DNA of 64,000 bases. Source: Escherichia phage Lindwurm. The translations under genes were made by a program, and so were the position numbers. The stretch is taken from sequence record NC_134264.1; one strand, given 5' to 3'. How positions within the stretch are numbered: the first letter of the stretch is position 1; each line of letters begins with the position of its first letter. Shown in pieces: positions 30,003 through 38,276 of the stretch. The notes below the pieces were generated by a model. The model did no database searches. It was not told where the DNA came from and worked only from the letters and a program-made list of their open reading frames with translations.

Positions 30003-30704
30003 ATGAAAGTAAAACCATTTGGTATGCTAGATATTGAATCTCTAGGAACTCCAGGAGATTGTGGTACTACTCATATCGCAATGCCTTCTTTCGCTTTTGT
30101 GGCTATGCATGGAATTGATAAAGACCCTGACTTAGTATTTGTTACTTTGGATGTGCAGGATCAGCTTAATTCTGGTGCCAAAGTTACAGCATCTACTCTA
30201 GCATTCTGGATGGATCAGGCTAAACATAGCCCGTCTGCTATCCACATTATGGAAGCTATGAATGAGCGTAATCCAAAACTGATTGCCTTCCAAAATGGTA
30301 AACATCATTGCACTAATAAACTTGGCTCTAACCATGCTGCCTTCTCTATGGCTCAAAATATTATGGAGTTGGCTCTAGGCGAAAATGCTTTGTATTATGG
30401 CAATGGCCCAGAGTTTGATATGACTATCTACTCTGCAAACACTTTCCATGCTGGAACCAATGAAGAAATAGTTCCGTGGAAATTCTGGAACTTGGGTAAT
30501 GTTAGATCTCTTCGTAATCTCTGGATGCAAACTGGCTATAGTTATAAAGCTCTAGAAACCGAAGGTATTAGCTGGGCAATAGCTAAAATGGAGAAGATGG
30601 ACACCATTCGTTATGGGATCTATCCGGTTAAGCACGATCCAGCATTCGATGCCCTAGTTGAGAGCTATTGTGTTGCAGCTATGATCGAAAAAGTGAAAAT
30701 TTGA
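30003..30704 (+). CDS. putative DEDD-type 3'-5' exonuclease
   Basis: LDIESLG (Exo I D-x-E), YGNGPEFD, HDPAFD (H-x4-D). Confidence 0.55.
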   Translation: MKVKPFGMLDIESLGTPGDCGTTHIAMPSFAFVAMHGIDKDPDLVFVTLDVQDQLNSGAKVTASTLAFWMDQAKHSPSAIHIMEAMNERNPKLIAFQNGKHHCTNKLGSNHAAFSMAQNIMELALGENALYYGNGPEFDMTIYSANTFHAGTNEEIVPWKFWNLGNVRSLRNLWMQTGYSYKALETEGISWAIAKMEKMDTIRYGIYPVKHDPAFDALVESYCVAAMIEKVKI

Positions 30705-30733
30705 TTTGCTTCCGGCTCCAAAATTCTGTATAA
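30705..30733 (+). promoter_or_regulatory. early-type promoter
   Basis: TTGCTT-17-TATAAT. Confidence 0.6.
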
Positions 30734-30774
30734 TATATTCATAAATTTGAGAAAACAATAAAAGGAAAACAAAT

Positions 30775-30957
30775 ATGCCAGTATCTAAAAATGTTCGTAA
30801 AAATGGTAAGAAAGCTACTCGTAATCTGGGTATCCGTCGTATGGCTGAACGTCAATCAGGTATCCAGAAAATCTTTGATCTGCTAAATCGTGCTAATCCT
30901 AAAATTGATAACAGTAACGATACTGTTCTGCGCACTCTGCTGGCAATTGGTCTGTAA
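30775..30957 (+). CDS. hypothetical protein
   Basis: 60 aa, basic. Confidence 0.5.
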   Translation: MPVSKNVRKNGKKATRNLGIRRMAERQSGIQKIFDLLNRANPKIDNSNDTVLRTLLAIGL

Positions 30958-31010
30958 TAGACCAAATTTAAACAAATTCAAATCTCAAACTTCATATAAG
31001 GAAGCAAATA

Positions 31011-31649
31011 ATGACTACTCGTATCTCTAAAACTCGCGCTCTGGCAACTATCAAATCTCTGGAAGCTAAAATCCGTAAAGCTACTGAACAGCAGCTTCTG
31101 ATTGCTGTTGGTGAAGGTAAGGATAAAAACCAGGTTGTAGTTGGCGCTGCAATCGAAGTAGCTGATCTGTCTACCCGTATTAAGACTGATTTCCAATCTC
31201 TACTGGATATGATGTCTCAGCGTGATCGTATCAAATCTGCTCTGATTAAGAGCAATGCAGAAACAATCGTTAAGATTGGTTCTCGTAAAATGACTGTTGC
31301 GGAAGCAATTGAAGCTAAGCGTTCTATGGAGCTTAAAGCTCAACTGCTGGCTAACATGCGTAAGCAGTTCCATGCCGCTACGGTTAAATTTAATACGCAG
31401 AAAGCACAGTTTGATGCTAAATATGAGCGTTTACAGGATAGCATGGCTACCCGCGATAAGAAAACTTCCGAAGATGAAGTTAAAATGCAGCTCAACCTGC
31501 TGGAACTCAAGAATACTCCATTCTTGATTGATCCGCTGGAACTGGAGAAGCTGATTAAGCAGCATGACGAGGAATACCAGGACTTTGCAACAAATGTTGA
31601 CTTTGTTCTGTCCGAGTCTAACGCTTCTACCTTCATTGAAGTAGAGTAA
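31011..31649 (+). CDS. hypothetical protein
   Basis: 212 aa. Confidence 0.55.
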   Translation: MTTRISKTRALATIKSLEAKIRKATEQQLLIAVGEGKDKNQVVVGAAIEVADLSTRIKTDFQSLLDMMSQRDRIKSALIKSNAETIVKIGSRKMTVAEAIEAKRSMELKAQLLANMRKQFHAATVKFNTQKAQFDAKYERLQDSMATRDKKTSEDEVKMQLNLLELKNTPFLIDPLELEKLIKQHDEEYQDFATNVDFVLSESNASTFIEVE

Positions 31650-32032
31650 TAATTTAAAAGCTAGTAAATCGGTAGACGAAAGCCCAAGCATCTTACCTCG
31701 CACCAGTGGTTGAAATACGAGGTTAAATAAGACCGCTGACCATACTATAAAGTATAATCTATTGGAGATTATGTTTATTACACCAGCCTTTTAAGCTGAC
31801 ACGTAAAAACAAAGCGTCGTTGATATTACCGACACAACTTCAAAGATCAACATTTAAGTATGAAAGCTGAAAAGTTTAAAGAACTCAAACTTCTAAACTT
31901 CTAAAGCTAAAAGATGCAAAGTATTCGTTGATGATTCAAACCCTAGATCAAAGGTACATGGCTCATAAGATATGGCCTGTGGCGCCTCTAGGCTGTTTAT
32001 CGGTTTACTAGTTTCACAATTTAAAAATGTAT

Positions 32033-32061
32033 TTGCTAATCTACTAAATTATATGTATAAT
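32033..32061 (+). promoter_or_regulatory. early-type promoter
   Basis: TTGCTA-17-TATAAT. Confidence 0.6.
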
Positions 32062-32091
32062 ATATTTTTAAATTGATGAAACGAGGCTATT

Positions 32092-32409
32092 ATGACTTTT
32101 CATATTTTGATTGATGATGTGCGTAATCTTCATGGAATGGACATTATCATTCGAACCCCAGAAGCCGCTGTAGAGTTTCTGAATAAAACTGATACCACAG
32201 GCCATTTCGTTTATATGGATAATGACTTGGCTGTAGATGGTATGGAAGGTTATCAAATTCTTCGTTTACTCTTAGAATTTGGGCAGAGACCAAAGAAAGT
32301 GGTACTAGTAACCTCGAACCCAGTAGCTAAGCAAAATATGCGTAATGATTTGCTTGACTTAGGGTATAAAGAAAATCCCAATCGTGTTGAATATGATTGG
32401 CAGGAGTAA
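32092..32409 (+). CDS. hypothetical protein
   Basis: 105 aa. Confidence 0.5.
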   Translation: MTFHILIDDVRNLHGMDIIIRTPEAAVEFLNKTDTTGHFVYMDNDLAVDGMEGYQILRLLLEFGQRPKKVVLVTSNPVAKQNMRNDLLDLGYKENPNRVEYDWQE

Positions 32410-32414
32410 AAAGA

Positions 32415-32864
32415 ATGAAGGCAGCTTTGCTTTTAGTAGCTGCCCTTACCTTCAGCTTTAGTAGTCAGGCATCGCACGATGCAAAAGAAATAGATTGCAT
32501 TGCTAAAAATATCTATTTCGAGAGTCGTGGTGAGGGCATAAAGGGAATGACGGCGATTGCACATGTTACTAAAAACCGTGTAAACTCCGGTAAATTCCCA
32601 GATTCCTACTGTAAAGTAGTATATCAGTCTAACCAGTTCTCTTGGGTATCTAAGAGACCAAAAGTTGATAAAACTGATGAGGCTTGGCAAACCGCTAAGA
32701 ATTTAGCTAGAGTGATATACTACGTTGATTTACCACAAGATCCTACATATGGAGCACTATACTTCCATAGTGGTAAAGATAAACCTTACTGGACAAAGAA
32801 GTTTAAGAAAACAACTAAGATTAAGGGACATACGTTTTATAAACCTGTTGTCACTAAAACTTAA
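32415..32864 (+). CDS. secreted SleB/CwlJ-like cell wall hydrolase
   Basis: signal peptide MKAALLLVAALTFSFSSQA; NIYFESRGEG...AHVTKNRV hydrolase_2-like motif; ATG 32415 with GGAG RBS. Confidence 0.65.
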   Translation: MKAALLLVAALTFSFSSQASHDAKEIDCIAKNIYFESRGEGIKGMTAIAHVTKNRVNSGKFPDSYCKVVYQSNQFSWVSKRPKVDKTDEAWQTAKNLARVIYYVDLPQDPTYGALYFHSGKDKPYWTKKFKKTTKIKGHTFYKPVVTKT

Positions 32865-32872
32865 AAATTTAC

Positions 32873-32901
32873 TTGCTTAAATACTTAAATTTCCGTATAA
32901 T
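32873..32901 (+). promoter_or_regulatory. early-type promoter
   Basis: TTGCTT-17-TATAAT. Confidence 0.6.
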
Positions 32902-33102
32902 ACTTCCATAAATTAATGAGAGGAAGCGAAATATGAAATCAGTTGTAATTATTGGTGTTAACACTCGCGGTATTCGTACTACGAAAACTGTTAAAACTTC
33001 TAACGTTGCTGAAATCACTACGAACCCTAAAAAGTTTGATTTCGCCAAAGTCTCAGCAGTTATGACAGAACAATCTTTTAACCAAGCGTTAGGAATGAAA
33101 TA

Positions 33103-33657
33103 ATGGAAGAGAATATTTTAGATGTTTTGCGTAGAGCTTTGCAGGATTCTAAGTTTAATGGTTCTGATAAAGAAGTCGCTAAAAGCTATCAGACCATAGT
33201 TGGGGATCTTCAGCGTATTGATAAAGACTTCATCACTTCAGAACAATTTGTGTCTTATCTCAAAGCTCAACTAAAAAGCATTAACCAGATGAAAGCTAAA
33301 CTTCATGGTCAAGATCTTGATAGTTATAGCTTGCAGTCTGCTCAGTATGAATACATTCTAAATAAGTGGTTGCAGGAGTATCTGCCCCCTCAGTTGTCTG
33401 ATACTGAGATTCGTAAATACTTTGCAGAATTAGTTAAGCTAAACCCCGGAATTACAAAGGGTATGCTGATGAAAGCGATTAAGGAAGAATTTCCTGGGCG
33501 TTATGATGGTGGTACTGCTGCTCAGATTGCTGGCGAATTTAACCAAGCAGATAGTTTAGTAAACTTAATAAAAGTTGCTAAACAGGATATTTCAGAAGGT
33601 AAATCATATACGCAAGAAGAAGCACTTGCTAAATTAAAGTCCGATAGATTAAACTAA
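33103..33657 (+). CDS. GatB/YqeY-domain protein
   Basis: EYLPPQLSDTEIRKYFAELV...MLMKAIKEEFPGRYDGGTAAQIAGEF closely resembles YqeY C-terminal domain (from memory). Confidence 0.6.
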   Translation: MEENILDVLRRALQDSKFNGSDKEVAKSYQTIVGDLQRIDKDFITSEQFVSYLKAQLKSINQMKAKLHGQDLDSYSLQSAQYEYILNKWLQEYLPPQLSDTEIRKYFAELVKLNPGITKGMLMKAIKEEFPGRYDGGTAAQIAGEFNQADSLVNLIKVAKQDISEGKSYTQEEALAKLKSDRLN

Positions 33658-33665
33658 AAATTTAT

Positions 33666-33694
33666 TTGCTAAATGCCTTTAAATTCTGTATAAT
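33666..33694 (+). promoter_or_regulatory. early-type promoter
   Basis: TTGCTA-17-TATAAT. Confidence 0.6.
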
Positions 33695-33719
33695 ATATTC
33701 ATAAATTAGAGAACAGCGA

Positions 33720-34490
33720 GCCGATTACGCTGAGTGCAGAATCCCAACCGGAGCGCATTGAATAGAGTCGGTGGGTTAGTTGTAAAACTAGTACACAGGG
33801 GGCGGCAATCCCGGTTAGTGGCTAGAACGTGTAAAATGAGGCGTCTGAAACCTCTCCCCTAAACTCTTCTCTAATTTATAAATAGTGGGGTGTGGAAATC
33901 ACTTATGTAGTAACACTGCCGTACTAGTATAATTGGTATTATCAAGCCGTAACTGGTGGAAGATGTAGGTTCGAATCCTACGGTCGGTAAGAACTGGATA
34001 ACTGGTGCTTTTAATGTAAAAGCTTCCGAGGTTAGTTGCGCACTGCCTAAACCACGCGGTAGTTGGTTCCAGACTAACCAACCAGTCTGCTGAATAGTTT
34101 TATTACGATTTAACTATGTCCAGGCTAAAGAAGAACTTTAGAAGGTATTCTAGGATAGTGAAGTTCTTTCTCCATATCGGAGTAGTTTTTCAAGCTATCC
34201 CCAAAGTGGGAAATGCTGACATGAGAGATGTCACTAATGGTGCACAATAGCACAGGTAATTCGCGATAACTCCTGTTGAGTAGCAGCAAAAGGCGGGAAG
34301 TCATGACCCCAAGCCTAACCGAGTCCTCAATATACCGCAGGACATAACCACTAAGTCACCCTGACTTAAACTGGAAAATAATAGACGTTACCGTATTTTG
34401 TCTTGAAATACTTAATGAGTGAGACTTATGACTCTCCCGGTATCGTCTGTATTTTTAAGAGTTTTTACAAGAGTTCTTAAAAATACTTAA
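33720..34490 (+). ncRNA. structured non-coding leader/RNA region of unknown function
   Basis: about 770 nt without credible ORF, downstream of a promoter; orphan T-arm GTAGG-TTCGAAT-CCTAC at 33965-33981; mutually exclusive hairpins at 34050-34090. Confidence 0.35.
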
Positions 34491-34491
34491 A

Positions 34492-34566
34492 CGGGGTGTA
34501 GTCTAAGGGAGAGGCAGGAGTCTTCTAAATTCCTTTATGCAGGTTCGAATCCTGTCACCTCGGCCA
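34492..34566 (+). tRNA. tRNA-Arg (anticodon UCU)
   Basis: acceptor CGGGGTG/CACCTCG, D-stem GTCT/AGGC, anticodon loop CTTCTAA, T-arm GCAGG-TTCGAAT-CCTGT, encoded CCA. Confidence 0.7.
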
Positions 34567-34600: not shown

Positions 34601-35548
34601 ATGTTTAATACTAAAAATATGAAAGAACTGACTTCTGAGCAGAAAGTAATTCGTACTATTAAACGTTGGGGTATTGGTGCTGTAGTTGGTTTAGCAGGCT
34701 TGATTCTAGCTTTTAATTCGTATACCATTGTTTCTGATGGTACGGTTAAAACCCAGACTTTCCTGGGTAAAGTAGACCCTAATCCAGTATTACCTGGTTT
34801 CCATCTTGTAAACCCGTTTGCATCTTTCGATACTTTTAGTACAAAAGATATTGCTGTAAAATTAGATAAACTTCAGGTTCCTAGTCAGGATAAGTTTAAA
34901 TCCACTGTTGACCTGACTGTTATGTTGCAGTTTGATGGTTCTAAGGCACCGATTAACCGTATTAACGCAGGTACTCAGGATCAGGCACTAGACAAGTATG
35001 TAACTGAAAAATTACTGTCTACTATTCGTGAGTTTGGTAAGTCTGTACCTAAAGCACAAGATTTGTTTGATGCTAAAATTCAGGCTCAATTGCAAACTGC
35101 AATTCAACAAGAAGTTGAAGAGTATGCACGCCCATATGGTTATACAGTTAAGCAGGTATTCCTTCAGGATATTACTTTGCCACCGGTAATCATGGAACAG
35201 GTACAGAATACCAAAGTTCGTGAAGAGCAAGTTAATGCTGCGAAAGCTGAACTGGCTCGTGTTGAACAAGAAGCACAGCAGAAGGTTAAACAAGCAGAAG
35301 CAGATCGTGAAGCTCGCAACAACCAAGCTATTGCTAATGAACGTGACGCAGATGCTAAACTGTACGCAGCTAAGAAAGAAGCTGAAGCTAACGCCGCATT
35401 GCAACGTACCATTACTCCTGAGATGATTCGTTGGAAACAACTGGAAGTTGAGATGATTCGTGCTCAGAAATATCAAGGTGGTGTACCTCAGACTGTGGTA
35501 GGTACTGGCTACGATGGTCAAATGATCATGGATATGCGTAACAAATAA
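34601..35548 (+). CDS. SPFH/band-7 (prohibitin-like) membrane protein
   Basis: N-terminal TM GIGAVVGLAGLILAF; SPFH-like core; Ala/Gln/Glu-rich coiled-coil C-terminus. Confidence 0.6.
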   Translation: MFNTKNMKELTSEQKVIRTIKRWGIGAVVGLAGLILAFNSYTIVSDGTVKTQTFLGKVDPNPVLPGFHLVNPFASFDTFSTKDIAVKLDKLQVPSQDKFKSTVDLTVMLQFDGSKAPINRINAGTQDQALDKYVTEKLLSTIREFGKSVPKAQDLFDAKIQAQLQTAIQQEVEEYARPYGYTVKQVFLQDITLPPVIMEQVQNTKVREEQVNAAKAELARVEQEAQQKVKQAEADREARNNQAIANERDADAKLYAAKKEAEANAALQRTITPEMIRWKQLEVEMIRAQKYQGGVPQTVVGTGYDGQMIMDMRNK

Positions 35549-38103: not shown

Positions 38104-38192
38104 GGAAGAATAGCATAACGGTATTGCAGCAGATTGCTAATCTGTCGGTTTGAAATATAGCCTTGTGGGTTCGATTCCCACTTCTTCCGCCA
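38104..38192 (+). tRNA. tRNA-Ser (anticodon GCU), class II
   Basis: acceptor GGAAGAA/TTCTTCC, anticodon loop TTGCTAA, long variable arm, T-arm GTGGG-TTCGATT-CCCAC, CCA. Confidence 0.75.
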
Positions 38193-38198
38193 GATTTT

Positions 38199-38276
38199 GG
38201 TTCTCAAGCTCATATGGTATGAGCACCCAGCTCATAACTGGAAGGTACGTAGGTTCGAATCCTCGGGGAGCCACCA
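38199..38276 (+). tRNA. tRNA with CAU anticodon (Met/fMet/Ile2)
   Basis: acceptor GGTTCTC/GGGAGCC with G-U pairs, D-arm GCTC-ATATGGTAT-GAGC, anticodon loop CTCATAA; T-stem poorly paired. Confidence 0.55.

What the first reader, a model, noticed from the sequence alone, without database searches (positions are those of the whole stretch)
33720..34490. Roughly 770-nt promoter-driven non-coding region with tRNA-like and switch-like hairpins
No credible ORF lies downstream of the promoter at 33666-33694. The region contains an orphan perfect T-arm (GTAGG-TTCGAAT-CCTAC at 33965-33981) with no matching acceptor stem, mutually exclusive hairpins (TTGGTT...AACCAA versus CAGACT...AGTCTG at 34056-34090) and symmetric A/T hairpins near 34445-34490. 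It ends in a bona fide tRNA-Arg. It could be a processed precursor carrying decayed tRNAs, or a structured ncRNA.
Basis: seen in the sequence. Interest (0 to 1): 0.5.

Follow-up and report, generated by a model that had tools for sequence, protein, structure and literature searches.

The report
Large structured phage RNA (T5 RNAX)
This stretch is the counterpart of phage T5's "RNAX": a roughly 790-base non-coding RNA with an elaborate, evolutionarily conserved fold that carries a tRNA-shaped module. It is found across the T5 phage family, has no known function and is missing from RNA family databases.

Summary
The sequence features are real, and the region is non-coding. It is the ortholog of rnaX, annotated in the T5 reference genome as "RNAX, stable RNA with unknown functions". 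A sigma-70 promoter (33666-33694) drives it, and it abuts tRNA-Arg (34492). The "orphan" T-arm is wrong: it belongs to a complete tRNA-like cloverleaf (33918-33989; Rfam tRNA 29.9 bits against a threshold of 29) whose arms covary.

The RNA is conserved in Tequintavirus, Epseptimavirus, Klebsiella Sugarlandvirus, Erwinia phage KEY and Pectobacterium phage DU_PP_V. Invariant sequence islands are separated by helices with many compensatory changes:
- 3' domain: 96% of cells paired, 17 of 37 pairs compensatory, against 6.1 in shuffles.
- A 12-bp arm carrying the tRNA-like module: 99.5% paired.

In some phages a plain hairpin replaces the tRNA-like module. In others it has a different "anticodon". 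It is therefore a structural decoration, not a decaying gene. An invariant palindromic loop (AGUCAUGA) and a near-invariant terminal hairpin stand out.

No Rfam family matches. The nearest analogues are the large phage RNAs GOLLD and ROOL, which also sit near tRNA islands. Function is unknown. My best guess is a trans-acting folded RNA particle, possibly self-associating or engaging tRNA-handling machinery.

The parts
33666..33694 (+). Sigma-70 promoter TTGCTA-N17-TATAAT. It is the counterpart of the promoter annotated 'P 16-17' in T5.
   Evidence: 10 of 12 matches. T5 annotation. The same promoter sequence precedes the RNA in KEY and DU_PP_V.
33701..34491 (+). Predicted RNAX transcript, about 790 nt. 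The 5' end is inferred from the -10 box; the T5 annotation maps to about 33708. The 3' end is inferred to be the RNase P cut at the 5' end of tRNA-Arg.
   Evidence: T5 and DT57C annotate misc_RNA rnaX running from the promoter to the first base of tRNA-Arg. Similarity to T5 is 92.6% over the shared 79%. The ends are inferred, not measured.
33701..33713 (+). 5' strand of terminal stem P0 (AUAAAUUAGAGAA). It pairs with 33867-33879.
   Evidence: RNAalifold on 16 sequences. In T5 the same two strands form a simple hairpin with a small loop.
33714..33866 (+). Module A, a structured insertion at the tip of P0. It is present in this clade, in Epseptimavirus and in shorter form in KEY, and absent from T5 and DT57C. 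It contains the conserved hairpin CAGCG-AGCCGAUUA-CGCUG (33714-33732) and the island CUGAAUAGAGUCGGUG.
33867..33879 (+). 3' strand of P0 (UUCUCUAAUUUAU).
33885..33893 (+). Domain 1 closing helix, 5' strand: GUGG (33885-88) plus GGUGU (33889-93).
   Evidence: RNAalifold. It pairs with CCAC 34052-55 and GCACU 34040-44. DU_PP_V has ACGG/CCGU, a double compensatory change seen by eye in one lineage.
33898..33917 (+). 5' strand of the long arm (AUCACUUAUGUAGU...CU) that carries the tRNA-like module.
   Evidence: 12 pairs are 99.5% paired in 18 sequences, and 5 of those pairs show compensatory changes in 5-8 sequences each. Single-sequence MFE folding recovers the arm in this window, GSW6 and KEY.
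33918..33989 (+). Embedded tRNA-like cloverleaf. The acceptor stem, D arm and a perfect T arm (GUAGG-UUCGAAU-CCUAC) are kept. The anticodon arm is abnormal: a 3-bp stem with a 6-nt loop GUAACU. There is no CCA.
   Evidence: Rfam tRNA 29.9 bits. ARAGORN does not call it here but does call it in T5, rutana, KEY and DU_PP_V with four different anticodons. Covariation: 11 of 20 pairs compensatory against 4.8 +/- 1.2 in shuffles.
33990..34006 (+). 3' strand of the long arm (AG...ACUGGAUAACUGGU), including the invariant GAUAACU (33997-34003).
34007..34023 (+). Hairpin P3 (GCUUUU-AAUGU-AAAAGC).
   Evidence: 94% paired, with compensatory changes at two pairs.
34040..34055 (+). Domain 1 closing helix, 3' strand: GCACU...CCAC, inside the invariant island AAACCACG.
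34056..34201 (+). Variable middle region with peripheral hairpins.
34206..34351 (+). Domain 2, a multi-helix junction. It is closed by invariant GUGG (34206-09) and CCAC (34348-51) and encloses four helices.
   Evidence: 96% paired; 17 of 37 pairs compensatory against 6.1 +/- 1.6 in shuffles (0 of 500 reach it); slid controls give 0-5. Covariance model R1 also finds this domain in Sugarlandvirus-type loci (E about 1e-3 to 1e-4). The closing helix itself never varies, so it is predicted only.
34292..34315 (+). Hairpin presenting the palindromic loop. The palindrome GUCAUGAC lies at 34300-34307; the loop is AAGUCAUGA here and AGUCAUGA elsewhere.
   Evidence: The stem covaries. The motif (G/A)AGUCAUGACC is kept in every homolog examined, including KEY, Klebsiella phages, DU_PP_V, L053 and L054.
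34353..34376 (+). Hairpin AAGUCA-CCC-UGACUU (34353-67) followed by the conserved single-stranded ACUGGAA (34370-76).
34383..34448 (+). Variable 3' three-way junction. A different structure takes its place in Epseptimavirus.
   Evidence: MFE z = -2.94. Alignment.
34449..34486 (+). Terminal 17-bp A/U-rich hairpin that marks the 3' end of RNAX.
   Evidence: z = -5.06. It is 90-100% identical to the DU_PP_V copy across the other groups, while the rest of the RNA is at most about 75% identical. In Klebsiella phages, rutana and KEY it is followed by ORFs rather than tRNA-Arg. KEY keeps the stem with changed sequence and an insertion in the loop.
34492..34566 (+). tRNA-Arg(UCU), co-transcribed downstream. 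Its 5' processing would create the 3' end of RNAX.

Best explanation
The region encodes the ortholog of phage T5 RNAX, a non-coding RNA of about 790 nt.

It is transcribed by host RNA polymerase from a strong sigma-70 promoter together with tRNA-Arg. It is most likely released when RNase P cuts at the 5' end of that tRNA (inferred).

The RNA folds into a multi-domain structure:
- a 5' stem whose tip carries an optional structured insertion;
- domain 1, closed by GUGG/CCAC, from which a 14-bp arm projects, capped by a tRNA-shaped cloverleaf;
- a variable middle region;
- domain 2, again closed by GUGG/CCAC, which displays an invariant palindromic loop AGUCAUGA;
- a near-invariant terminal hairpin.

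The fold is shown by covariation. The function is inferred. I think it acts in trans as a stable folded RNA particle, as the phage RNAs GOLLD and ROOL do. Its tRNA-shaped module and CAU-containing loop probably engage tRNA- or translation-related machinery. Its palindromic loop may let copies pair with one another.
For: Identity:
- It has the same position, promoter and tRNA-Arg junction as the annotated T5 and DT57C rnaX, and is 92-96% identical over the core.

Non-coding:
- No ORF exceeds 60 aa.
- Pfam finds no match for the five short ORFs. The only PHROG match, phrog_19105, is to an ORF whose frame is interrupted in most divergent homologs.

Conservation: the RNA is present in
- Tequintavirus and Epseptimavirus;
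- Sugarlandvirus (L011-L015, L105);
- Erwinia phage KEY (L049);
- Mccorquodalevirinae phage DU_PP_V (L062).

Structure:
- Domain 2 is 96% paired, with 17 of 37 pairs compensatory against 6.1 +/- 1.6 in shuffles.
- The arm plus acceptor stem plus T arm plus P3 are 93.4% paired. The covariation score is 0.33 against 0.149, and slid controls give 0-2 compensatory pairs.
- In the cloverleaf, 11 of 20 pairs are compensatory.
- Abundant G.U pairs on the + strand would be A.C mismatches on the - strand, which points to a + strand RNA.
- Variable modules sit at helix tips: module A in P0, and either a cloverleaf or a plain hairpin on the arm.

Analogy:
- GOLLD and ROOL are large phage or prophage RNAs near tRNA islands.
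- GOLLD sometimes carries tRNAs in its linker.
- Both assemble through kissing loops (PMC12286853).

The AGUCAUGA ... AACCAC(G) pair of motifs also turns up inside tRNA islands of apparently unrelated phage contigs (L053, L054, L070, L159).
Against: - No expression data were available. 'Stable RNA' is the T5 depositors' wording, and I found no open-access paper that supports or describes it.
- Folding energies of the whole RNA and of most modules are not significantly better than shuffles.
- The two closing helices and the palindromic loop are invariant, so covariation cannot test them. The one exception is a single lineage, DU_PP_V, for domain 1.
- The structures were derived from the same alignments on which pairs were counted, and the sequences are phylogenetically related. 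Both inflate the controls.
- Nothing measured here bears directly on function, oligomerisation or processing.
- The matches outside Demerecviridae are weak (model R1 E = 0.006-0.06 for L054) or rest on a pattern that itself required the motifs.
Confidence: 0.6

Rival explanations
1. tRNA mimic or decoy. The RNA exists to present a tRNA-shaped module, and a CAU 'anticodon-like' loop, to host enzymes. The targets could be anticodon nucleases of defence systems, or tRNA-processing, modifying or charging enzymes. The RNA would titrate or misdirect them during infection.
For: - The cloverleaf keeps its acceptor, D and T arms by covariation, while the anticodon arm is free to vary.
- It reads as Ser-ACU in T5, 'SeC'-UCA in rutana, Pro-UGG in KEY and Leu-UAG in DU_PP_V.
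- In the marine contig L070, the AGUCAUGA loop sits at the anticodon-arm position of a 76-nt cloverleaf that ends in GCCA.
- T5 tRNAs are known to counter tRNA-targeting defences (PMC11464382 and PMC10644984).
Against: - The tRNA-like module is replaced by a plain hairpin in GSW6, L020 and L037, with the rest of the RNA intact.
- The most conserved parts are not tRNA-like.
- The acceptor stem is extended by a 14-bp helix and lacks CCA, unlike a normal enzyme substrate.
Confidence: 0.15
2. Cis-acting leader or processing platform. The structure serves the downstream genes (tRNA-Arg and the SPFH/Band-7 lipoprotein). It could direct RNase III or RNase P processing, transcript stability or read-through, and would have no role as a free RNA.
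For: - It is always followed on the same strand by genes without an intervening terminator.
- The terminal 17-bp hairpin is the best-conserved element and lies immediately before the next gene or its ribosome-binding site.
- A terminator-like site follows the lipoprotein gene; T5 annotates an efficient terminator in the same place.
Against: - The downstream gene differs between lineages: tRNA-Arg here, a 169-aa ORF in rutana, small ORFs in Klebsiella phages and KEY.
- 600-1000 nt of conserved multi-domain structure is far more than known leaders need.
- No riboswitch, T-box or leader family matches.
Confidence: 0.12
3. Passive spacer or precursor carrying a decayed tRNA gene. On this reading the conservation reflects recent common ancestry only.
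For: - It lies at the edge of a tRNA gene region.
- It holds one marginal tRNA hit of 29.9 bits.
- Mosaic insertions and deletions between phages are frequent.
Against: - Conservation extends across subfamilies where flanking sequence is unalignable.
- Invariant islands and dozens of compensatory changes are present.
- There is only one tRNA-like element, and it is maintained rather than decaying.
Confidence: 0.05
4. Overlooked small protein-coding genes, as some GenBank records annotate: 'hypothetical proteins' of 42-60 aa.
For: - ORF 33956-34093 matches phrog_19105 at E = 8e-38.
- Several records annotate ORFs in this stretch.
Against: - Read in that frame in 13 homologs, only 4 Tequintavirus sequences (window, T5, DT57C, R2) keep the start codon and stay free of in-frame stops. 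Seven others have internal stops, the start is lost in 5, and GSW6 lacks that stretch.
- The ORF overlaps the T arm of the cloverleaf.
- The other ORFs have no family match.
- Substitutions follow base-pairing rather than codon logic.
Confidence: 0.02

Closest known systems
Phage T5 rnaX ('RNAX, stable RNA with unknown functions'; NC_005859 feature T5s08; also annotated in DT57C and DT571/2)
   Same: Same locus, promoter, strand and junction with tRNA-Arg. The core, from 33862 onward, is 92-96% identical.
   Different: This window's version carries a 150-nt structured insertion (module A, 33714-33866) that T5 lacks. It lacks an extra segment of about 65-80 nt that T5 has near the 3' end. The T5 annotation gives no structure, family or function, and I found no accessible paper on it.
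GOLLD RNA
   Same: Both are large (over 600 nt), ornate, phage-encoded RNAs at tRNA islands. Both have a conserved 3' part and a more variable 5' part. Both can carry a tRNA in a variable position. Conserved loops could serve intermolecular kissing (PMC12286853).
   Different: The Rfam model gives no match even at E <= 10, and the sequence islands differ. GOLLD is known mainly from Lactobacillales or mycobacterial prophages and from marine samples, not from virulent enterobacterial siphophages. Oligomerisation is untested here.
ROOL RNA
   Same: It is a large phage or prophage RNA, often near tRNA islands. It has no known protein partner or function and is built from many helices and kissing loops.
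   Different: No match to the Rfam model. ROOL has no embedded tRNA-like module. The host range is different.
Canonical tRNA, and tRNA-like modules embedded in larger RNAs
   Same: It has the cloverleaf with a GUUCGAAUC T loop and a D loop with GG. It has an acceptor stem, and its Rfam tRNA score is at threshold.
   Different: The anticodon arm is non-canonical. There is no CCA. The acceptor stem continues into a 14-bp helix, so the module is an internal branch of a bigger RNA. A hairpin replaces it in some phages.
Small 'stable RNAs of unknown function' in phage tRNA clusters. Examples are T5 RNAI, RNAIII, RNA1, RNA2, RNA3, RNAIV and RNA2H, and T4 species 1 and 2 RNAs (the T4 RNAs are from my own knowledge).
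   Same: They share the same genomic neighbourhood, co-transcription with tRNAs and unknown function.
   Different: Those RNAs are 70-170 nt, and several are simply tRNA-like. RNAX is 5-10 times larger and multi-domain. Model R1 finds no second copy in the window or in the T5 tRNA region.

Membership tests
T5 rnaX (RNAX) locus | Lies between the YqeY-like gene and tRNA-Arg(UCU), downstream of the P16-17-type promoter, on the same strand | tested here: met
   (YqeY domain upstream; Band_7 lipoprotein downstream).
T5 rnaX (RNAX) locus | Sequence homology to T5 RNAX along its length | tested here: met
   92.6% identity over 79% of the query to T5, and 95.3% to DT57C. The uncovered 21% is module A.
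T5 rnaX (RNAX) locus | Accumulates as a stable transcript in infected cells | not testable with these tools
   Only the depositors' note says so. No paper was found.
tRNA (Rfam tRNA model / ARAGORN) | Score at or above the curated threshold | tested here: met
   29.9 bits against 29, which is marginal. Orthologs score 33-50 bits.
tRNA (Rfam tRNA model / ARAGORN) | Called as a tRNA gene with a defined anticodon | tested here: not met
   ARAGORN does not call it in the window. Orthologs receive four mutually inconsistent identities.
tRNA (Rfam tRNA model / ARAGORN) | 5-bp anticodon stem with a 7-nt loop | tested here: not met
   A 3-4 bp stem and a 6-nt loop GUAACU here. DU_PP_V appears to have a 5-nt loop (read by eye). 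Only KEY is canonical.
tRNA (Rfam tRNA model / ARAGORN) | Free acceptor end (single-stranded leader; discriminator plus CCA or an addable end) | tested here: not met
   The flanks pair with each other for 14 more base pairs, and no CCA is present.
GOLLD RNA | Match to the family covariance model | tested here: not met
   No hit at E <= 10 in the window region, and none at E <= 1 in 16 homologous loci.
GOLLD RNA | Large phage-encoded RNA adjacent to tRNA genes, sometimes with a tRNA inside | tested here: met
   Family description from PMC12286853. This is a resemblance, not a criterion for membership.
GOLLD RNA | Homo-oligomeric nanocage | not testable with these tools
   Needs native gels, SEC-MALS or cryo-EM.
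ROOL RNA | Match to the family covariance model | tested here: not met
Any other Rfam 15 family | Match to any of the 4227 covariance models | tested here: not met
   Only tRNA hits, plus noise far below the thresholds.

The most novel reading that the evidence does not exclude
RNAX could be a third, independent class of large self-organising phage RNA alongside GOLLD and ROOL. Its invariant palindromic loop (UCAUGA) would form intermolecular kissing contacts. Its core module, an AGUCAUGA hairpin plus AACCACG, would be a widespread functional element of phage tRNA islands well beyond the T5 family. T5 with E. coli would then be the first genetically tractable model for working out what such RNAs do.
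Probability: 0.2. Interest if true: 0.8.

Novelty: new variant of a known kind. Interest (0 to 1): 0.6.

Why it matters
Large ornate bacterial and phage RNAs such as GOLLD, ROOL, OLE and raiA are among the least understood RNAs. GOLLD and ROOL now have striking structures but no function, and their hosts are awkward to work with.

RNAX shares their hallmarks: its size, a phage tRNA island, an embedded tRNA and conserved loops. It sits in phage T5 and hundreds of its relatives that infect E. coli, Salmonella and Klebsiella, where genetics, defence-system panels and biochemistry are routine. It has carried a name in the T5 annotation for about twenty years. Yet it is absent from Rfam, and most genome records leave it unannotated or mislabel it as small 'hypothetical proteins' or 'tRNA-OTHER/Sec/Ser'.

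There is also a practical benefit. Recognising the family would remove spurious ORFs (phrog_19105) and pseudo-tRNA calls from more than 500 phage genomes.

Tried and rejected
- Rfam scans of the window region, 16 homologous loci and L054 found nothing but tRNA.
- Single-sequence folding: z-scores are mostly insignificant, so they are not used as evidence.
- An IMG/VR scan with the 5' island pattern returned only T5-like contigs of about 100-120 kb and added no diversity.
- A naive all-against-all search for complementary covarying columns was far too noisy and was discarded.
- The metagenome scan with the three-motif pattern gave 0 hits. The two-motif pattern gave 120 loci, almost all chance matches. 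Only L075 and L105 (Demerecviridae) pass model R1, and only L070 and L159 lie inside tRNA islands.
- I could not recover the upstream part of the L053/L082 contig, because the stored stretch ends 24 nt from the motif.
- Proteins encoded next to RNAX in other lineages gave no functional clue. Pfam found nothing, and PHROGs gave only one family of unknown function (phrog_18988), apart from an HNH homing endonuclease.
- Literature searches for RNAX, T5 stable RNAs and T5 together with GOLLD or ROOL found no description.
- I considered group I/II introns, tmRNA, RNase P RNA, 6S, Y-RNA-like RNAs, T-box and riboswitch leaders. Rfam and ARAGORN detect none of them.
- I considered reading the loop as a Shine-Dalgarno plus AUG start mimic (GGAG-UC-AUG). 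I rejected it because the GG is part of the stem and this window has GAAG.
Full report
**What the window is.** The region lies in a T5-like phage genome that is 99% identical to Escherichia/Salmonella phages fp01, Th1 and YJin-2024a. The stretch 33695-34491 sits between two genes on the + strand. Upstream is a YqeY-domain gene (33103-33657), which some records call 'tRNA amidotransferase'. Downstream are tRNA-Arg(UCU) at 34492-34566 and an SPFH/Band-7 lipoprotein gene at 34601-35548. Twenty more tRNA genes follow from 38104 onward.

**Checking the observation.**
- The promoter TTGCTA-N17-TATAAT is at 33666-33694.
- No ORF exceeds 60 aa.
- The T-arm, the two interleaved hairpins and the long A/U hairpin are all at the stated coordinates.
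- One statement is wrong: the T-arm is not orphan. Rfam's tRNA model aligns a whole cloverleaf at 33918-33989, scoring 29.9 bits against a threshold of 29.
- This window carries a private C-to-A change at acceptor position 6 that weakens the stem. Close relatives have GCCGUCC, and T5 has a fully paired stem.
- This explains why some GenBank records call the element tRNA-OTHER, tRNA-Ser or tRNA-Sec while ARAGORN skips it here.

**It already has a name.** The T5 reference genome annotates the orthologous stretch as misc_RNA rnaX, 'RNAX, stable RNA with unknown functions'. That feature is 719 nt long. It runs from promoter 'P 16-17' to the base before tRNA-Arg. DT57C and DT571/2 carry the same annotation. 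T5 lists seven further 'stable RNAs' of 70-170 nt in its tRNA region. I found no open-access paper that describes RNAX, and none that links T5-like phages with GOLLD or ROOL.

**It is not coding.**
- Pfam finds no match for the five short ORFs, and PHROGs matches only one of them.
- That ORF, 33956-34093, matches phrog_19105. It overlaps the T arm.
- Read in the same frame in 13 homologs, only 4 Tequintavirus sequences keep both the start codon and an open frame. Seven have internal stops, the start is lost in 5, and GSW6 lacks that stretch.
- The PHROG therefore appears to be a family of mis-called ORFs.

**Conservation.** BLAST finds the region in more than 500 phage records. Sequence islands persist far beyond the point where the rest stops aligning. 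They are present in:
- Epseptimavirus;
- Klebsiella Sugarlandvirus (L011-L015, and the metagenomic L105);
- Erwinia phage KEY (L049);
- the Mccorquodalevirinae phage DU_PP_V (L062).

The islands include ATAGTGGGGTG..GAA...ACTTATG....AACACTGCC, GATAACT (twice), AAACCACG, AGTGGGAAA, GGAGTCATGACC, ATAACCAC, ACTGGAA and the terminal hairpin. Between the islands lie helices that differ in sequence but keep their pairing. Whole modules are inserted or swapped at helix tips.

**Structure, 3' domain (34202-34378).** RNAalifold on 17 sequences predicts a junction closed by GUGG (34206-09) and CCAC (34348-51). The junction encloses four helices, and a further hairpin follows it. Counting pairs gives:
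- 96% of cells paired;
- 17 of 37 pairs with compensatory double changes, against 6.1 +/- 1.6 in shuffles (0 of 500 reach the observed value);
- 0-5 compensatory pairs when the partners are slid by 1-3 columns.

A covariance model built from this alignment (R1) gave these results:

| Target | E-value |
|---|---|
| All Markadamsvirinae copies | 1e-50 to 1e-59 |
| Phage bux | about 1e-6 to 1e-7 |
| Sugarlandvirus-type copies | about 1e-3 to 1e-4 |
| Non-T5 metagenomic phage contig L054 | 0.006-0.06 |

**Structure, 5' domain (33885-34055).** The most conserved 5' island is one strand of a long helix. AUCACUUAUGUAGU (33898-33911) pairs with ACUGGAUAACUGGU (33993-34006), so the invariant GAUAACU is simply the partner of ACUUAUG.
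- In 18 sequences, including Klebsiella phages and KEY, these 12 pairs are 99.5% paired. Five of them show compensatory changes in 5-8 sequences each.
- The arm continues through CU/AG into the acceptor stem of the cloverleaf.
- Single-sequence folding recovers the same arm in this window, in GSW6 and in KEY.
- The domain is closed by GUGG/CCAC (33885-88 / 34052-55). DU_PP_V has ACGG/CCGU at the corresponding positions.
- Frequent G.U pairs on the + strand would be A.C mismatches on the other strand, so the transcript is the + strand.
- At the very 5' end, AUAAAUUAGAGAA (33701-13) pairs with UUCUCUAAUUUAU (33867-79). The 150 nt between them (module A) are an insertion at the tip of what is a simple hairpin in T5.

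**The tRNA-like module.** Its cloverleaf is supported by covariation: 11 of 20 pairs are compensatory against 4.8 +/- 1.2 in shuffles, and the T arm is 100% paired. Several features argue that it is a structural, tRNA-shaped branch of the larger RNA, not a decaying gene and probably not a released tRNA:
- The anticodon arm is abnormal: a 3-4 bp stem with a 6-nt loop.
- Its apparent identity changes from lineage to lineage:

| Lineage | Apparent identity |
|---|---|
| T5 | Ser-ACU |
| rutana and bux | 'SeC'-UCA |
| KEY | Pro-UGG, a good tRNA at 50 bits; KEY has another tRNA-Pro elsewhere |
| DU_PP_V | Leu-UAG |
| Kpn02 | a 14-nt longer anticodon/variable region |

- In GSW6, L020 and L037 a plain branched hairpin on the same closing helix replaces it.

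**Two elements stand out.**

1. The hairpin at 34292-34315 displays AGUCAUGA, containing the palindrome UCAUGA. Its stem covaries, but the loop is identical in every homolog, even the most distant. A self-complementary loop is what a kissing homodimer would freeze in place.
   - The same loop followed by AACCAC(G) also occurs at or in tRNA islands of other phage contigs.
   - L053 is a 112.7-kb contig in which the motif heads a run of 12 tRNAs; this is the same contig as L082.
   - L054 is a 25-kb contig with terminase and portal genes, and the motif lies next to tRNA-Pro.
   - L070 is a marine 91.7-kb contig and L159 has a 22-tRNA island.
   - In L070 the loop sits at the anticodon-arm position of a 76-nt cloverleaf that ends in GCCA. 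The loop could therefore equally be a CAU anticodon-arm derivative.
   - These matches were found with a pattern that required the motifs. Most of the other 120 metagenome hits are chance, so I treat this as a lead only.
2. The terminal 17-bp hairpin (34449-34486) is 90-100% identical to the DU_PP_V copy across the other groups, where the rest of the RNA is at most 75% identical.
   - It marks the 3' boundary of RNAX whatever gene follows.
   - KEY keeps the stem with a changed sequence and an insertion in the loop.

**How it probably works.**
- Shown: a promoter; a non-coding, + strand, multi-domain fold conserved across a phage family; an embedded tRNA-shaped branch.
- Inferred:
  - co-transcription with tRNA-Arg;
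  - release by RNase P at the tRNA's 5' end, matching the boundary that T5's annotators chose;
  - action in trans as a folded particle.
- Speculative: self-association through the palindromic loop, or engagement of tRNA- or translation-related factors.

A pure cis-leader role is less likely because the downstream gene differs between lineages. A decoy role centred on the cloverleaf is weakened by the phages that lack it.

**Comparison with known systems.** GOLLD and ROOL are large, phage or prophage-encoded RNAs that often lie near tRNA islands. GOLLD sometimes has tRNAs in its linker. Both are held together by kissing loops and A-minor contacts, and neither has a known function (PMC12286853). 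RNAX resembles them in kind but fails the membership test. No Rfam model matches at permissive thresholds in the window or in 16 homologs. I therefore file it as a distinct variant of that kind of RNA. Its existence as a feature was already annotated in T5.

**Caveats.**
- The structures were derived from the alignments on which they were scored.
- The sequences are related by descent.
- The closing helices and the key loop never vary, so covariation cannot test them.
- There are no expression or functional data.

Noticed in passing
window 33956-34093 (+): This 45-aa ORF matches phrog_19105 (E = 8e-38). It overlaps the T arm of the tRNA-like module, and its frame is broken in most divergent homologs. 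The PHROG looks like a family of mis-annotated ORFs. Many GenBank records also annotate 'hypothetical proteins' inside RNAX.
   Followed up: yes
window 38199-38273 (+): The Rfam tRNA model scores 38.2 bits here, directly after tRNA-Ser(GCU) at 38104-38192, but ARAGORN does not call it. By position it corresponds to T5's tRNA-Ile2(CAU).
   Followed up: no
window 33923: A C-to-A change private to this window breaks acceptor pair 6 of the tRNA-like module: GCCGUAC here against GCCGUCC in 99%-identical relatives. This explains the marginal Rfam score.
   Followed up: yes
L005 (JLBYU43) 1017-1499; L016 (bux) 1017-1499: An HNH homing-endonuclease gene is inserted immediately upstream of the RNAX core. 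It replaces the promoter-proximal stem P0 and module A. The 5' stem is therefore dispensable, and the transcript must start further upstream in these phages.
   Followed up: partly
L003 (T5), about 2011-2074, against window 34354-34376: T5's RNAX has extra sequence of about 65-80 nt near the 3' end that partly repeats the ACUGGAA... segment. T5's RNAX is 719 nt against 636 nt in DT57C.
   Followed up: no
L018 (T5 record 30284-33949): T5 annotates seven other 'stable RNAs with unknown functions' in its tRNA region: RNAIII, RNAI, RNA1, RNA2H, RNAIV, RNA2 and RNA3. None matches an Rfam family in this window's gathering scan. Model R1 finds no relative of RNAX domain 2 among them.
   Followed up: partly
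L070 1323-1410 (-), TARA marine contig of 91.7 kb: A 76-nt cloverleaf-like element lies between tRNA-Asp and tRNA-Arg. It has AGUCAUGA in the anticodon-arm position and a T arm GUGG-GGUAGAA-CCAC, and it ends in GCCA. Neither ARAGORN nor Rfam calls it a tRNA.
   Followed up: partly
L159 5517-5662 (-): A cow-rumen-3 RNA (Rfam RF03083, 109 bits) sits inside a 22-tRNA phage island. The same island also holds an AGUCAUGA-loop hairpin at 826-871. It is another example of structured RNAs populating phage tRNA islands.
   Followed up: no
window 34449-34486 and homologs: The terminal hairpin contains a direct repeat AAGAGUU (34457-63 and 34469-75). It is far better conserved than the rest of the RNA, 90-100% across the groups compared. 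This suggests a sequence-specific partner, not merely a stable stem.
   Followed up: partly
L006 (phage R2) 2101-2171: In this phage the tRNA-Arg after RNAX appears truncated or altered. Rfam matches only model positions 7-64 and ARAGORN makes no call. The lipoprotein gene is also replaced by other tRNA-region genes, which suggests a deletion or rearrangement directly downstream of RNAX.
   Followed up: no
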